From a bacterium (lineage in GTDB: Bacteria > Patescibacteriota > Minisyncoccia > UBA6257 > 1-14-0-10-44-23), in assembly GCA_030699515.1 (NCBI GenBank), contig JAUYME010000066.1, forward strand, positions 1-33,120: a DNA stretch of 33,120 bases, written 5' to 3'. This document shows positions 4,085-23,521 of this stretch, piece after piece. Below the pieces are notes generated by a model. That model saw only the letters and a program-made list of their open reading frames with translations, was not told the DNA's origin and did not search any database. Position 1 is the first letter of the stretch, and each line of letters opens with the position of its first letter. The translations under genes were made by a program, and so were the position numbers.

Positions 4085-5485
4085 ATGGAGAGAACTTTAA
4101 TTAAAGAAACGCCGGAAAGGATTGGCGAGAAGGTAGAGCTTTTTGGCTGGGTGGACAGCAGGAGAGATCATGGAAAGCTGATTTTTTTTGATATTCGCGA
4201 CAGAAGTGGAATTGTTCAGGCTGTGGTAACGCCAAAAAGCGCTGCCTACGAAGAGGCAAACAAGCTTCGTGATGAGTGGGTTATTAGAGTTGTGGCAGAA
4301 ATAAAGGCTAGGCCGGAAAAAATGATTAACGAGGGGCTATCCACCGGAACAGTTGAGGCAGCTATTTCCGAGCTTGAAGTTTTGAATGAAAGTGAAACAC
4401 CGCCATTGCCGCTAAAAGGTGATGGAATGGATATTGATGAGGATGTTCGGCTTAAGTATAGATATTTGGATTTGCGTCGAGAAAGACTGCAGAAGAACAT
4501 TAAATTGCGCAGCGAGTTTGTAGATAGGTGCAGGCAATTTCTTTTTGAGCGTGATTTTAGCGAGATAGAAACGCCAATGCTTACTAAGAGCACCGCCGAA
4601 GGCTCTAGAGACTTTGTTGTGCCAAGCAGACTGCACAAAGGAAAGTTCTTTGCACTTCCGCAAAGTCCACAGCAATACAAACAGCTTTTAATGACAGCTG
4701 GCTTTGAAAGATACTTTCAGCTTGCCCGATGTATTCGCGATGAAGACTTAAGGGCGGACAGAGGCTTTGAGCATACTCAAATTGATATGGAAGTGAGCTT
4801 TGTTGATAGGGACGAGTTTATGAAAATGGATGAAGAAATGATTACAACTGTTGTGGAGGCAATGGGCTACAAAATTAAAGAAAAGCCTTTTCCAAGAATT
4901 AGTTATAAAACTGCGATAAATGAGTATGGCGGGGATAAGTTTGATTTGCGAAATGAGGCAGAGAAACAGGACGGGGTGCTGGCATTTGCTTGGGTTACAG
5001 ATTTTCCGTTTTTTGAGAAGGCGGATGATGGCGGCTACACCTTCTCTCACAACCCTTTTTCTGCAGTAATGCCGGAAAGTTTGGATGATTTGCTGAAAGG
5101 GGAGAATGTAGAAAACATTATCAGTTCCCAATACGATCTTGTTTGCAACGGTTTTGAGGTAGGAGGTGGAAGCATCAGGGCGCATAGGGCAGATTGGCTT
5201 GAAGCAGCACTAAAAATTATGGGAATGGATGAAGAAAAAATTCAGAAAGATTACGGCCATATGCTGGAGGCATTTAAATATGGCACTCCACCGCATGGGG
5301 GAATTGCCCATGGAGTTGAAAGAATGATAATGATTTTAAGCGGAGAAGAGTATCTGCGAGAGGTGCAGGCCTTCCCGCAAAGTAGTAGCGGGCGAACTTC
5401 TGTAATGAATGCACCAGAGCCAATTAGCGACGATCAACTGAAGGAGCTAGGGCTAAAGATTGATATAAAAAAAGATAAGGAGTAA
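4085..5485 (+). CDS. aspS: Aspartyl-tRNA synthetase, short form without the bacterial insertion (GAD) domain
   Basis: Class II motifs QSPQQYKQLLM, FERYFQLARCIRDEDLRADR and GGGSIR. 466 aa, against about 590 aa for typical bacterial AspRS. Confidence 0.9.
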   Translation: MERTLIKETPERIGEKVELFGWVDSRRDHGKLIFFDIRDRSGIVQAVVTPKSAAYEEANKLRDEWVIRVVAEIKARPEKMINEGLSTGTVEAAISELEVLNESETPPLPLKGDGMDIDEDVRLKYRYLDLRRERLQKNIKLRSEFVDRCRQFLFERDFSEIETPMLTKSTAEGSRDFVVPSRLHKGKFFALPQSPQQYKQLLMTAGFERYFQLARCIRDEDLRADRGFEHTQIDMEVSFVDRDEFMKMDEEMITTVVEAMGYKIKEKPFPRISYKTAINEYGGDKFDLRNEAEKQDGVLAFAWVTDFPFFEKADDGGYTFSHNPFSAVMPESLDDLLKGENVENIISSQYDLVCNGFEVGGGSIRAHRADWLEAALKIMGMDEEKIQKDYGHMLEAFKYGTPPHGGIAHGVERMIMILSGEEYLREVQAFPQSSSGRTSVMNAPEPISDDQLKELGLKIDIKKDKE

Positions 5486-5510: not shown

Positions 5511-5993
5511 ATGTCTAACCACCCAAAAGAAGAGAAAACATTGGTTTTAATCAAGCCCGATGGCATCCAAAGGGCCTTGCTTGGCGAAATTTTGCACCGC
5601 TTTGAGAGAAAGGGCCTAAAAATTATTGGTCTTAAAATGCTTCGTCTTGATGATGTTTTGACTAAGGCGCATTACGGAAAGTACGAAGACAAGCCTTTTT
5701 TTGCCGGACTGAAAGATTTTATGCAATCTAGCCCGATAGTTGCGGTGGTGCTTTGTGGCGTAAATGCAGTGAAGGTTACTAGGCTGATTGTTGGGCAAAC
5801 TAAAAGCTATGAAGCAATACCAGGAACAATAAGGGGGGACTTTGCAATGAGTATGCAAAGCAACCTAGTGCACGCTAGTGATCCAGAAGAAAATCCAGCC
5901 GAAGAAGTTAAAAGATTTTTTGAGGATGACGAACTATTTTCTTATAAGAAAATAAACTTTGATCTTCTTCACGCGCCAGACGAATTGAAATAG
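5511..5993 (+). CDS. ndk: Nucleoside diphosphate kinase
   Basis: LVLIKPDG...RGDF...NLVHASD active-site His context. Confidence 0.9.
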   Translation: MSNHPKEEKTLVLIKPDGIQRALLGEILHRFERKGLKIIGLKMLRLDDVLTKAHYGKYEDKPFFAGLKDFMQSSPIVAVVLCGVNAVKVTRLIVGQTKSYEAIPGTIRGDFAMSMQSNLVHASDPEENPAEEVKRFFEDDELFSYKKINFDLLHAPDELK

Positions 5994-6000
5994 CGCTCGG

Positions 6001-6091
6001 ACTTTGCTTTTAAATAGCAGAATAATTTTCTGGCTGAAAATTTTCTTCACGCTCGGCTCGTCAGCCTGCGCGACGTATTTAAAAGCAAAGT
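6001..6091. repeat. Inverted-repeat hairpin element (16-bp perfect arms actttgcttttaaata / tatttaaaagcaaagt)
   Basis: Arms at 6001-6016 and 6076-6091. Starts 8 nt after the ndk stop. Confidence 0.6.
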
Positions 6092-6224
6092 TCTCGCTTT
6101 TTCTGGCCTGACGCTTGGAAGCAAATTAAAATTTGCTTAATTGAAAAGTTTCATAGCAGAAAAGGAGCTTTGTAGAAACAGGTTTTTATTAATTTGAAAT
6201 AATTTTGGACGTGCATCGTTATAT

Positions 6225-6385
6225 ATAGTGATCCCGCTCTATAAATTTCTACTTAATCATATACATAGGGAGGTCTATATCGGCTCTAGCCTTGGCTAGA
6301 CACCTGCGACCACCCACCTAGTTCATACTAGAACTAAGAGAGCGGGGTTCCCTTTCGGGGGAAAAGCGGCGAGAGCCGCTTTTGA
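6225..6385 (+). other. Structured region with closing stem CCCGCUCU/AGAGCGGG, inner hairpins and a terminal AAAAGCGGC-GAGA-GCCGCUUUU hairpin
   Basis: Complementarities read directly from the sequence. Strand and function unknown. Lies upstream of the first ArsR gene. Confidence 0.3.
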
Positions 6386-22405: not shown

Positions 22406-22482
22406 TGGAGCCACCTGTCGGATTCGAACCGACGACCTACTGTTTACAAAACAGTCGCTCTAACCAACTGAGCTAAGGTGGC
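22406..22482 (-). tRNA. tRNA-Thr(UGU), CCA encoded
   Basis: Reverse complement folds as GCCACCT TA GCTC..GAGC G ACTGT TTTGTAA ACAGT AGGTC GTCGG TTCGAAT CCGAC AGGTGGC T CCA. Confidence 0.9.
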
Positions 22483-22579: not shown

Positions 22580-23164
22580 ATGTTGGATAAAAATCAGTTA
22601 GAGCAAATGTATGCTGAGGAAGGAAAGTCTATGCAGGAGATTGCGGATTTGTTTGGTTGTTCGCTTAACAAGGTGAGATATTGGATGGATAGGCTGAAGA
22701 TTAAAAGGCGCAGCATAAGTGATGCTATTTATTTGAGAAGCAATCCCAATGGGGACCCGTTTAAATTCAATAAGCCCAAAACGATTGCGGACGTAGAGCT
22801 TCTTGGGTTGGGCCTAGGGCTTTATTGGGGCGAGGGAACAAAGGCAAGCAAGAGTTCTGTACGACTTGGAAATACGGACCCTAAACTAATTTTGAAATTT
22901 GTTGAGTTTCTTGAAAGAATTTTTTCAGTAAACAGAGGTGATATGAAGTTTGGTTTGCAGATTTTTTCTGATATTTCGCCTAAGAAAGCACTGGACTTTT
23001 GGGCTGAAAAGCTTAGAATAAACAAATCTCAATTTTACAAAGTTATTGTTACGCAGTCTGGCTCAATAGGGACTTACCGAAAGAAGTCTGAGTACGGAGT
23101 TTTGACTGTGTATTACAACAATACGAGATTGAGAGACATGTTAGTTGATATGTTGCCGACGTAG
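22580..23164 (+). CDS. HTH plus single-motif LAGLIDADG homing-endonuclease-like protein (free-standing)
   Basis: N-terminal HTH (SMQEIADLFGCSLNKVRYWM). LAGLIDADG-like LLGLGLGLYWGEGTK, followed by KLILKFVEFLERIF and GVLTVYYNN. Stop TAG 23162-23164 lies inside the tRNA 5' exon. Confidence 0.7.
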   Translation: MLDKNQLEQMYAEEGKSMQEIADLFGCSLNKVRYWMDRLKIKRRSISDAIYLRSNPNGDPFKFNKPKTIADVELLGLGLGLYWGEGTKASKSSVRLGNTDPKLILKFVEFLERIFSVNRGDMKFGLQIFSDISPKKALDFWAEKLRINKSQFYKVIVTQSGSIGTYRKKSEYGVLTVYYNNTRLRDMLVDMLPT

Positions 23165-23441
23165 CTCAGGGGTAGAGCACTTCCATGGTAATTCGCTAGA
23201 ATTTGCCCATTAGCGCCGAAATGCGCTTTTTGTATCCCGAATAACGGTTAAAGGCCTTAAGCGAGGCTCAGACCGTGGCGTTTTGCCTGCCTGCCGGCAG
23301 GCAGGCGCCCGAACGACTGACAAGGGACTACGTACTCTTTTGAGCGTAGAAGATACAGTCTAGCCTCTCTATAAGCTTTTTATGAAATGAGAGTGTAAGC
23401 GAAGGAAGGGGTCGCGAGTTCAATTCTCGCCGTCGGCTCCA
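23155..23441 (+). tRNA. tRNA-Thr(GGU) interrupted by a group I intron after anticodon position 36; CCA encoded
   Basis: Exon 1 (23155-23189): GCCGACG TA GCTC AGGGGTA GAGC A CTTCC ATGGT. Exon 2 (23402-23441): AA GGAAG GGGTC GCGAG TTCAATT CTCGC CGTCGGC T CCA. Confidence 0.8.
23190..23401 (+). mobile_element. Group I intron (212 nt, no internal ORF)
   Basis: P1 GGU|AAUUC-GCUA-GAAUU(U)GCC with U-G at the splice site. P2 AGCGC/GCGCU, P3 UCCC/GGGA, P4 ACGGU/ACCGU, P5 GGCCU/AGGCU, P7 GACUG/CAGUC, P8 CUACG..CGUAG. J8/7 AAGAUA. Terminal G at 23401. Confidence 0.8.
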
Positions 23442-23442
23442 A

Positions 23443-23464
23443 CTTGCCATAAAGGGCAAGTTTT
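23443..23464 (+). terminator. Intrinsic terminator after tRNA-Thr
   Basis: cttgcc-ataaag-ggcaag tttt. Confidence 0.65.
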
Positions 23465-23521
23465 GCTATTGTCTAGCGATTAATGAACATCGCGCTAAGC
23501 GCGACTATCTAATAAATTAAA

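What the first reader, a model, noticed from the sequence alone, without database searches (positions are those of the whole stretch)
22580..23164. Free-standing HTH-LAGLIDADG ORF ending inside the intron-containing tRNA gene
The intron has no ORF. Directly upstream lies a 194-aa protein with an N-terminal HTH and one LAGLIDADG-like motif (LGLGLYWGEGTK), the I-CreI-like single-motif type. Its stop codon is tRNA positions 8-10. Free-standing homing endonucleases that cut intron-less alleles next to an ORF-less intron (collaborative homing) are known from phage systems such as the cyanophage psbA intron/F-CphI case. An analogous partnership at a bacterial tRNA gene would be new. The intron would then also protect the resident tRNA gene from cleavage.
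Basis: partly seen in the sequence, partly recalled or inferred. Interest (0 to 1): 0.75.

Follow-up and report, generated by a model that had tools for sequence, protein, structure and literature searches.

The report
Putative homing endonuclease abutting split tRNA-Thr
A conserved gene of candidate-phyla-radiation bacteria sits against a threonine tRNA gene that is split by a self-splicing intron, and comparison with about 200 related loci suggests, without proving it, that it is a selfish DNA-cutting gene aimed at the intact tRNA gene.

Summary
ORF 22580-23164 (194 aa) is real, and its TAG stop is positions 8-10 of a tRNA-Thr(GGU) gene split by an ORF-less 212-nt intron. Rfam misses the intron, but 53 homologous introns show a full group I core with covariation.

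The protein has a helix-turn-helix module of the kind found in phage homing endonucleases. Its C-terminal domain carries an invariant YWGEGTK motif. LAGLIDADG membership is only weakly supported: Pfam hits are sub-threshold, no fold match is significant, and alignment to I-DmoI is marginal.

All 84 family members examined lie directly 5' of tRNA-Thr(GGU). The gene is absent from syntenic "empty" sites in related bacteria. It travels with the intron in 60/84 loci, against 1/31 loci without the ORF. Of the 24 intron-less carriers, 20 have a changed anticodon stem (13 different variants). An intact CC-AUGGUAA-GG arm is therefore rare beside the ORF and normal without it.

A paralogous subfamily sits the same way at tRNA-Trp, without any intron.

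Best reading (about 0.5): a free-standing homing endonuclease that targets the anticodon arm, with immunity from the intron or from stem swaps. Nuclease activity is untested.

The parts
22580..23164 (+). ORF of 194 aa (stop included): putative free-standing homing endonuclease, Thr subfamily
   Evidence: About 1,980 homologous clusters. 32 invariant residues. AlphaFold2 model with mean pLDDT 90.
22583..22732 (+). N-terminal HTH DNA-binding module (residues 2-51)
   Evidence: Pfam HTH_23 scores 26.9 bits, above the cut-off, and matches 57/65 members. PHROG 7545 and 8446, both named 'HNH endonuclease', match at E 6e-9 and 9e-9 over residues 2-51.
22784..23161 (+). C-terminal domain (residues 69-194), possibly a divergent single LAGLIDADG domain with an insertion
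   Evidence: The model of residues 60-194 has pLDDT 91. There is no significant fold match. LAGLIDADG_3 is sub-threshold in 25/65 members. hhalign to I-DmoI motif 2 gives E 0.031.
22808..22843 (+). Motif LGLGLYWGEGTK (residues 77-88) with invariant Glu85 and Lys88
   Evidence: The Trp subfamily has YWCEG.K at the same place.
23162..23164 (+). TAG stop codon, which is also U8-A9-G10 of the tRNA
   Evidence: The same register occurs in about 52 of 80 related loci.
23155..23189 (+). tRNA-Thr(GGU) exon 1, ending with the anticodon GGU
23190..23401 (+). ORF-less group I intron (212 nt) inserted between tRNA positions 36 and 37
   Evidence: The U.G pair at the 5' splice site and the terminal G are present in 58/58 introns. 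P1-P9 and the P3/P7 pseudoknot are recovered: 94.8% of cells are paired and 34/52 pairs show compensatory changes. Rfam does not call it.
23402..23441 (+). tRNA-Thr(GGU) exon 2, including the encoded CCA
23441..23470 (+). Terminator-like hairpin plus T-run just after the tRNA; suggests one ORF-tRNA transcription unit (inferred)
22406..22482 (-). tRNA-Thr(UGU), the conserved left neighbour of the ORF insertion
   Evidence: tRNA-Thr(UGU) or tRNA-Tyr lies within about 100-700 nt upstream of the ORF in many related loci.

Best explanation
The ORF is a free-standing homing-endonuclease gene. It is one member of a family, so far seen only in candidate-phyla-radiation bacteria, that parks at the 5' edge of the tRNA gene it is specific for.

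Inferred mechanism: the protein binds DNA through its HTH module. It probably acts as a homodimer of its single LAGLIDADG-like domain. It recognises the near-palindromic DNA of the tRNA-Thr(GGU) anticodon arm (..CC-ATGGTAA-GG..) and cuts it in genomes that lack the element. Recombinational repair then copies ORF, exon 1 and intron into the broken allele, using the flanking conserved tRNA genes as homology.

The carrier is immune because its own site is destroyed. Either the group I intron at position 36/37 splits it (as in this window), or paired substitutions in the anticodon stem change both half-sites while keeping the tRNA functional.

Shown here:
- the fixed position against the tRNA;
- the presence/absence polymorphism;
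- the association with the intron;
- the changed stems in intron-less carriers;
- the endonuclease-type HTH module;
- the group I nature of the intron.

Inferred and not shown: nuclease activity, the target site, dimerisation and the homing process itself.
For: (1) Position. In 80/80 genome loci and 3/3 metagenome loci the ORF lies directly 5' of tRNA-Thr(GGU). In about 52/80 the stop is at tRNA positions 8-10.

(2) Indel. CPR-like loci with the same tRNA cluster lack the ORF: in L125 Thr(UGU) and Thr(GGU) are 46 nt apart, and in L141 Tyr and Thr(GGU) are 3 nt apart. L092 shares both flanks with ORF-bearing loci L032, L052, L057 and L067.

(3) Intron association. The intron is present in 60/84 ORF+ loci and in 1/31 low-GC ORF- loci (Fisher p 3e-11). 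Within the sample not selected for the ORF the counts are 2/3 against 1/31 (p 0.016).

(4) Site avoidance. Only 4/84 ORF+ loci keep an uninterrupted xxTCC-ATGGTAA-GGAxx arm, against 24/31 ORF- loci (p 1e-14). Among intron-less loci, C30-C31 is kept in 3/23 ORF+ (4/24 once L069 is added) against 27/29 ORF- (p 3e-9). The ORF+ loci show 13 different variant stems.

(5) The HTH module matches the DNA-binding module of phage families annotated 'HNH endonuclease', E 6e-9 and 9e-9.

(6) Several weak signals all point to a LAGLIDADG_3-type domain:
- Pfam hits in 25/65 members, best E 9.6e-4;
- Foldseek match to the TliVMA intein endonuclease, TM 0.45-0.46;
- BFVD top hits to phage LAGLIDADG endonucleases, E 1e-3 to 0.03;
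- hhalign to I-DmoI placing Glu85 on E117 and Lys88 on K120, E 0.031.

(7) Divergence is decoupled from the host. ORF identity correlates with S2 at rho 0.20 and with EF-Ts at rho 0.02, while S2 and EF-Ts correlate with each other at rho 0.62. Mean identity is 56% for the ORF, 37% for S2 and 53% for EF-Ts.

(8) A sister subfamily sits directly 5' of tRNA-Trp(CCA) in 10/10 loci, and none of those tRNAs has the common arm GGTCTCCAAAACC (p 0.0025).
Against: No nuclease family is matched above threshold. The confident structure model has no significant match to any of the many solved LAGLIDADG structures. Its secondary-structure order (alpha-beta-alpha-beta-alpha-beta-beta-alpha) is not the canonical alpha-beta-beta-alpha-beta-beta-alpha.

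The protein is as conserved as EF-Ts, and no decayed copy of the Thr subfamily was seen. Both are unusual for a selfish gene.

The closest host pairs also have the closest ORFs, and ORF identity tracks tRNA exon identity (rho 0.42). Much of the inheritance is therefore vertical.

Four loci (L002, L022, L049, L069) have an apparently intact ORF beside an intact, intron-less site.

The counts are not corrected for shared ancestry. The ORF-less controls were defined only by low G+C and a tRNA pattern, not by taxonomy.
Confidence: 0.5

Rival explanations
1. The ORF is a host DNA-binding protein, for example a regulator of the tRNA operon or another CPR-specific function. It is inherited vertically, and its link with the intron and with stem variants reflects lineage history.
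For: Conservation is strong: 32 invariant residues and 56% mean identity across classes. Length and position are fixed. ORF identity tracks tRNA exon identity, rho 0.42. The closest host pairs have the closest ORFs. No nuclease fold or family is demonstrable.
Against: Distribution is patchy, with syntenic empty sites. Divergence is decoupled from S2 and EF-Ts. The HTH is of the type found in phage homing endonucleases. This reading gives no reason for the intron association, or for 13 different anticodon-stem variants arising specifically in intron-less carriers. It also does not explain the parallel Trp subfamily at a different tRNA.
Confidence: 0.2
2. The ORF is a free-standing homing endonuclease whose target is not the intron insertion site, for example another part of the tRNA cluster or the ORF-less junction. 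The intron merely hitch-hikes by co-conversion because it lies 35 nt from the ORF.
For: This uses the same mobility evidence as the best explanation. Intact ORFs occur beside intron-less tRNAs in 24/84 loci. The Trp subfamily works without any intron.
Against: It does not predict that intron-less carriers should have changed exactly the base pairs next to the anticodon loop: C30-C31 is kept in 3/23 ORF+ loci against 27/29 ORF- loci. It also does not predict that tRNA-Trp carriers should avoid the common anticodon arm.
Confidence: 0.12
3. The ORF is a maturase, a protein cofactor that helps the tRNA-Thr group I intron to fold and splice. It would be encoded next to its RNA substrate and co-transcribed with it.
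For: ORF and intron co-occur in 60/84 loci and the intron is almost never found without the ORF. The ORF and tRNA probably form one transcription unit. From established knowledge, LAGLIDADG proteins are known to act as group I intron maturases, for example I-AniI and the yeast bI3 maturase.
Against: 24 intact, conserved ORFs sit beside intron-less tRNAs. The whole Trp subfamily has no intron in 10/10 loci. The acidic residue of the motif is invariant. The N-terminal module is a DNA-binding type.
Confidence: 0.08

Closest known systems
Collaborative (trans) homing in phages: F-CphI with the ORF-less psbA intron of cyanophage S-PM2, and T4 mobE with the nrdB intron (PMC6083498, PMC2790892; review PMC3984707)
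   Same: [quoted passage not shown] The intron is proposed to interrupt the enzyme's own target and so to protect the carrier.
   Different: Here the host is a cellular bacterium, not a phage. The invaded gene is a tRNA, not a protein-coding gene. The nuclease domain is LAGLIDADG-like or new, not Endo VII-like or HNH. The ORF overlaps the target gene by 10 nt. A second route to immunity (anticodon-stem swaps) appears in 20/84 loci. Cleavage has not been shown.
I-Ssp6803I, the endonuclease encoded inside the tRNA-fMet group I intron of Synechocystis (Bonocora & Shub 2001, listed in the references of PMC3984707; the details are from my own knowledge)
   Same: [quoted passage not shown]
   Different: I-Ssp6803I is encoded within the intron and belongs to the PD-(D/E)XK family. 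Here the intron is ORF-less and the candidate enzyme is encoded outside it, upstream of the tRNA.
Phage T4 SegB, a free-standing GIY-YIG homing endonuclease in the T4 tRNA gene cluster (PMC2330249)
   Same: A free-standing endonuclease gene is wedged between tRNA genes, and conserved tRNA genes serve as flanks for co-conversion.
   Different: SegB is a phage GIY-YIG enzyme. It has no intron partner and no overlap with a tRNA.
Single-motif and two-motif LAGLIDADG endonucleases (I-CreI, I-DmoI) and the LAGLIDADG enzymes of CPR rRNA introns (PMC11270868)
   Same: The motif ends in an acidic residue followed by Gly at the end of a long helix, then a short hairpin and an amphipathic helix. Alignment to I-DmoI motif 2 is marginal. 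A homodimer would suit a palindromic target.
   Different: No profile match is above threshold and no fold match is significant. There is an insertion of about 40 residues between the third and the last strand and an added N-terminal HTH. The gene is not intron-encoded.

Membership tests
LAGLIDADG homing endonuclease | LAGLIDADG-type motif at the end of helix 1 with a conserved acidic residue followed by Gly | tested here: met
   LGLGLYWGEGTK lies at the end of helix 69-86. Glu85 and Gly86 are invariant in 65 sequences. The Trp subfamily has YWCEG.
LAGLIDADG homing endonuclease | Profile match to a LAGLIDADG Pfam family at the curated threshold | tested here: not met
   LAGLIDADG_3 scores 14.4 bits against a cut-off of 22.5. 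It is sub-threshold in 25/65 close members (best E 9.6e-4) and in 5/60 distant members. No LAGLIDADG chain is found in PDB sequence searches. hhalign finds nothing against I-CreI and E 0.031 against I-DmoI.
LAGLIDADG homing endonuclease | alpha-beta-beta-alpha-beta-beta-alpha fold | tested here: inconclusive
   The models are confident, pLDDT 90-91, yet no PDB match reaches E<=1e-3. The best LAGLIDADG-containing match is the TliVMA intein, TM 0.45-0.46, E 0.02-0.055. OmpA-like and IspF folds score the same. DSSP shows an extra helix, strand and loop between strands 3 and 4.
LAGLIDADG homing endonuclease | Site-specific double-strand cleavage leaving 4-nt 3' overhangs | not testable with these tools
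   This needs the purified protein.
Free-standing homing endonuclease gene / collaborative homing | ORF lies outside the intron, next to an ORF-less intron in a conserved gene | tested here: met
Free-standing homing endonuclease gene / collaborative homing | Presence/absence polymorphism at a conserved locus (empty sites in relatives) | tested here: met
   L087, L096, L105, L125, L141 and L149 lack the ORF, and L092 is a syntenic empty site.
Free-standing homing endonuclease gene / collaborative homing | The enzyme's target coincides with the intron insertion site, and the carrier allele is resistant | not testable with these tools
   Support is indirect only. An intact anticodon arm is kept in 4/84 ORF+ loci against 24/31 ORF- loci.
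Group I intron | 5' exon ends in U paired with G of an internal guide (P1), and the intron ends in G | tested here: met
   58/58 introns meet both conditions. The U.G pair at columns 9/62 is invariant in 53/53.
Group I intron | Conserved core P3-P9 with the P3/P7 pseudoknot, supported by covariation | tested here: met
   94.8% of cells are paired, against 34-47% when partners are slid. 34/52 pairs have double changes. All three P3 pairs have compensatory changes.
Group I intron | Match to the Rfam group I intron model | tested here: not met
   There is no hit in the window even at E<=10, and none at E<=1 in 14 other intron-bearing loci.
Group I intron | Self-splicing with guanosine | not testable with these tools
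   This needs in vitro transcription and splicing.

The most novel reading that the evidence does not exclude
Candidate-phyla-radiation bacteria carry a superfamily of tRNA-gene-specific selfish endonucleases, with Thr(GGU) and Trp(CCA) subfamilies and perhaps more. The nuclease domain would be a very divergent LAGLIDADG domain or a new one.

Each gene sits against the 5' end of its target tRNA gene and borrows the tRNA's U8-A9-G10 as its stop codon. These genes would drive two kinds of host response: retention of group I introns as immunity, and repeated compensatory swaps in tRNA anticodon stems.

Because the last two sense codons and the stop lie inside the tRNA, RNase P cleavage of the co-transcript would leave a stop-less mRNA. 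Enzyme production would then be tied to tRNA processing.
Probability: 0.25. Interest if true: 0.8.

Novelty: new variant of a known kind. Interest (0 to 1): 0.66.

Why it matters
If the protein is shown to cut intron-less tRNA-Thr genes, several things follow.

- It would move collaborative homing from a few phage cases to cellular tRNA genes across a large, poorly known bacterial phylum.
- It would give a concrete reason why group I introns persist in bacterial tRNA genes, namely immunity against a linked nuclease.
- It would show a selfish element shaping tRNA anticodon-stem sequences.
- It would add a compact HTH-plus-nuclease enzyme with a tRNA-gene target to the known homing endonucleases.

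Independently of the nuclease question, the intron family described here is invisible to Rfam and to standard tRNA finders. This tRNA-Thr gene is therefore missed in genome annotation, and completeness estimates for these bacteria are biased.

Tried and rejected
- **Rfam.** Searches of the window and of 14 intron-bearing loci gave no group I hit. I did not take this as evidence against an intron, because covariation analysis settled it.
- **PDB sequence searches.** Searches with the single protein, the close alignment and the distant alignment returned only HTH matches.
- **Foldseek.** The full model and the C-terminal domain gave nothing significant against PDB. The OmpA-like and IspF matches (TM 0.3-0.46) were judged non-specific.
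- **hhalign to I-CreI.** Nothing found.
- **Metagenome pattern.** The tRNA pattern I chose, with A32, turned out not to be specific to CPR. Most hits were other bacteria, so I restricted the controls to low-GC contigs, which is only a rough proxy.
- **ORF-intron co-phylogeny.** Pairwise identity was uninformative (rho 0.02). The intron core is nearly invariant and its loops cannot be aligned.
- **Promoter scan.** It gave no more sites than shuffled sequence, so no promoter is claimed.
- **Upstream rearrangement.** An inversion of the upstream Thr(UGU)-Tyr pair is seen in some ORF-bearing loci, but not consistently, so it was dropped.
- **Maturase and host-regulator readings.** Both were considered and ranked lower, for the reasons given under the rival explanations.

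Full report
**What is in the window**

ORF 22580-23164 (+) encodes 194 aa. Its last codons, TTG CCG ACG TAG, run into a tRNA whose 5' end is at 23155, so the TAG is tRNA positions 8-10.

ARAGORN in its default mode misses this tRNA. With intron search it calls tRNA-Thr(GGU) at 23155-23441 with a 212-nt insertion after the anticodon. The parts are exon 1 23155-23189, intron 23190-23401 and exon 2 23402-23441.

The surroundings are an ordinary candidate-phyla-radiation (CPR, Patescibacteria) chromosome: rpsB, tsf, tRNA-Tyr, tRNA-Thr(UGU) on the minus strand, the ORF, the split tRNA-Thr, rpmG, tRNA-Trp and ATP synthase genes. A terminator-like hairpin follows the tRNA. G+C content is 39.5% for the ORF and 42.8% for the window, so there is no compositional anomaly.

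**The intervening sequence is a group I intron that Rfam does not recognise**

Rfam gave no group I match in the window even at E<=10, and none at E<=1 in 14 other loci that carry the homologous insertion.

I collected 58 homologous insertions. In all 58 the upstream exon ends in U and the insertion ends in G. An alignment of 53 of them has a nearly invariant core and variable hairpins.

RNAalifold recovers P1, P2, P4, P5, P6, P7 (GACUG/CAGUC), P8 and P9. In P1 the U.G pair at the splice site is invariant.

I then added the P3 pseudoknot (CCC/GGG) and counted pairs. 94.8% of cells are paired, against 34-47% when partners are slid by 1-3 columns. 34 of 52 pairs show changes on both sides. All three P3 pairs have compensatory changes.

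This is the standard group I architecture, inserted between tRNA positions 36 and 37. The held literature mentions group I introns in CPR tRNAs only in passing (PMC8172020).

**The protein**

It is a real, conserved gene. About 1,980 clusters at 90% identity match it, almost all close to 194 aa, and every cluster that a source names is from Patescibacteria or an unclassified bacterium. About 135 clusters at 50% identity reach E<1e-30 in the exhaustive library, although some of these are tandem-HTH repeat proteins rather than full-length relatives. A 65-sequence alignment has 32 invariant residues, among them Y82-W83-G84-E85-G86, K88, R95, N98, Q127, D131 and Q151.

The N-terminal module (residues 2-51) passes Pfam HTH_23. 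It also matches two PHROG families annotated 'HNH endonuclease' at E 6e-9 and 9e-9, over their DNA-binding part. It is therefore the kind of HTH that homing endonucleases use.

The C-terminal domain is less clear. The evidence is as follows:
- Pfam LAGLIDADG_3 is below threshold for the window protein (14.4 bits, cut-off 22.5). It recurs sub-threshold in 25/65 close members (best E 9.6e-4) and 5/60 distant members, and it was the only family not of the HTH or DNA-binding kind to recur in the C-terminal domain.
- AlphaFold2 models are confident, pLDDT 90 and 91.
- Foldseek finds no PDB match at E<=1e-3. The best LAGLIDADG-containing match, the TliVMA intein, has TM 0.45-0.46, no better than unrelated alpha/beta domains.
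- Among viral models, the top weak hits include phage LAGLIDADG endonucleases.
It places Glu85 on E117 and Lys88 on K120, at E 0.031.

My reading is that this is a divergent single LAGLIDADG domain with an insertion of about 40 residues between the third and the last strand. I hold this at about 0.65. It could instead be a new domain.

**Where the family sits**

In 80 of 80 genome loci found with the protein, the ORF lies directly 5' of tRNA-Thr(GGU). In about 52 of them the stop codon is the tRNA's U8-A9-G10. In four it is a TAG in the D-loop, and in the rest the ORF stops 1-117 nt before the tRNA. The conserved C-terminal Leu-Pro is simply the translation of the acceptor stem. Beyond the tRNA cluster the neighbours vary.

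**The ORF is an insertion, not a universal gene**

A scan of metagenome contigs for the 5' half of tRNA-Thr(GGU) was not selected for ORF or intron. It returned CPR-like clusters without the ORF. In L125, Thr(UGU) and Thr(GGU) are 46 nt apart. In L141, Tyr and Thr(GGU) are 3 nt apart. L092 shares both flanks with ORF-bearing loci but has only 110 nt between tRNA-Tyr and tRNA-Thr(GGU).

In 15 loci that also carry rpsB and tsf, ORF identity hardly follows host divergence. The correlation is rho 0.20 with S2 and rho 0.02 with EF-Ts, while S2 and EF-Ts follow each other at rho 0.62. The closest host pairs do also have the closest ORFs. ORF identity follows tRNA exon identity at rho 0.42. The picture is mostly local vertical descent, with some decoupling at depth.

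**ORF, intron and anticodon stem**

| Group | Loci | With intron | Intron-less |
|---|---|---|---|
| ORF-bearing | 84 | 60 | 24 |
| Low-GC, without the ORF | 31 | 1 | 30 |

These counts come (Fisher p 3e-11). The single ORF-less locus with the intron is L151.

Intron-bearing genes keep the arm xxTCC-AUGGU|AA-GGAxx in 56 of the 57 that could be scored. That is also the usual arm in ORF-less bacteria.

The 24 intron-less genes next to an ORF mostly differ in the base pairs beside the loop. There are 13 different variants, such as ACACA, CGTCA, TTTGC and CACGC. C30-C31 is kept in 3/23 ORF-bearing intron-less loci (4/24 once L069 is added), against 27/29 ORF-less intron-less loci (p 3e-9).

Overall, an uninterrupted common arm occurs beside the ORF in 4/84 loci and without it in 24/31 (p 1e-14).

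These tests ignore shared ancestry. The control set is defined by G+C and a sequence pattern only, so the p-values are upper bounds on significance. The 13 distinct variants do argue for repeated events.

The four exceptions (L002, L022, L049, L069) have apparently intact ORFs.

**A sister subfamily at tRNA-Trp**

Proteins of about 220 aa have the same build: an HTH, then the motif YWCEG.K. They are 29-33% identical to the window protein over residues 81-189. They lie directly 5' of tRNA-Trp(CCA) in 10 of 10 loci examined, and several again stop at tRNA positions 8-10. One of them, in L012, is only a fragment.

None of these tRNA-Trp genes has an intron. None has the common arm GGTCTCCAAAACC, which occurs in 20/37 low-GC loci without the paralog (p 0.0025).

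**Interpretation**

The evidence fits a free-standing homing endonuclease whose target is the anticodon-arm DNA of its neighbouring tRNA gene. That DNA is by nature a near-palindrome, which suits a homodimer of a single-motif enzyme. The intron insertion point lies 1-2 bases from its centre.

Carriers would be immune either through the intron, as in this window, or through paired stem substitutions that change both half-sites at once.

The maturase reading is weakened by the 24 intron-less carriers and by the intron-free Trp subfamily. The host-regulator reading is weakened by the empty sites and by the stem pattern. It remains the main alternative, because no nuclease activity or fold has been shown.

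The overlap of the stop codon with the tRNA means that RNase P cleavage of a co-transcript would remove the stop. Whether this is used to limit expression is speculation.

**Comparison with known systems and novelty**

The logic is that of collaborative homing, described for F-CphI with the psbA intron and for mobE with the nrdB intron in phages (PMC6083498, PMC2790892, PMC3984707). It is combined with features of two other systems:
- I-Ssp6803I, an intron-encoded enzyme whose target is a tRNA anticodon region.
- T4 SegB, a free-standing endonuclease gene in a tRNA gene cluster (PMC2330249).

I found no description of this family, or of a free-standing partner for a bacterial tRNA intron, in the held literature.

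I class it as a new variant of a known kind. Interest is 0.66, limited mainly by the lack of any direct evidence for cleavage.

Noticed in passing
L021:5533-6198, L044 (ORF ending 5834), L197 (ORF 5603-6247), L201:1501-2148, L202:1501-2145, L203:1501-2160, L204:1501-2109; also L010, L012, L053: A paralogous subfamily of about 220 aa (HTH plus the motif YWCEG.K) lies directly 5' of tRNA-Trp(CCA) in 10/10 loci examined. Several copies stop at tRNA positions 8-10. These tRNAs have no intron, and none has the common anticodon arm GGTCTCCAAAACC. The subfamily has 118 clusters at 90% identity.
   Followed up: partly
L040:3632-3926: tRNA-Tyr(GUA) carries a different, more canonical group I intron (212 nt, with GAGACUA and AAGAUAUAGUCC elements). 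It lies 75 nt upstream of the ORF, so this locus has intron-bearing tRNAs on both sides of the ORF.
   Followed up: no
L151 (reverse-complemented, so that the tRNA-Thr reads 5'->3'): about 1437-1597: A truncated copy of tRNA-Thr(GGU) (positions 1-38), followed by a degenerate intron 5' end, lies directly upstream of an intact intron-containing tRNA-Thr that has no ORF. It may be the scar of a recombination event at the anticodon loop.
   Followed up: partly
L012 (paralog match at 4982-5137, upstream of tRNA-Trp at 5172): Only a fragment of the Trp-subfamily protein (residues 135-186, 48% identity) is left here. It is probably a decayed copy, and it is the only sign of degeneration seen in the superfamily.
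   Followed up: no
library proteins P0129, P0136, P0140 and about 40 others: These proteins of 350-820 aa consist of 6-14 tandem copies of the N-terminal HTH module (residues about 3-55 of the window protein).
   Followed up: no
P0175, P0187; ORF in L022:4051-4657: Gene callers extend some family members through the tRNA gene. C-termini such as AQLVEHSHGKGKVSGS are translated tRNA-Thr(GGU), not protein sequence.
   Followed up: partly
window 23155-23441: Default ARAGORN and the Rfam tRNA model both miss this tRNA-Thr(GGU) because of the intron. Standard annotation would report the genome as lacking this tRNA.
   Followed up: yes
window 22406-22482 (-); also L023, L027, L031, L032, L057, L062: In the window, tRNA-Thr(UGU) just upstream of the ORF is on the opposite strand. 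In those six loci the whole Thr(UGU)-Tyr pair is on the opposite strand. In the empty site L092 the pair is co-oriented with tRNA-Thr(GGU). The link between ORF presence and this inversion is not consistent.
   Followed up: partly
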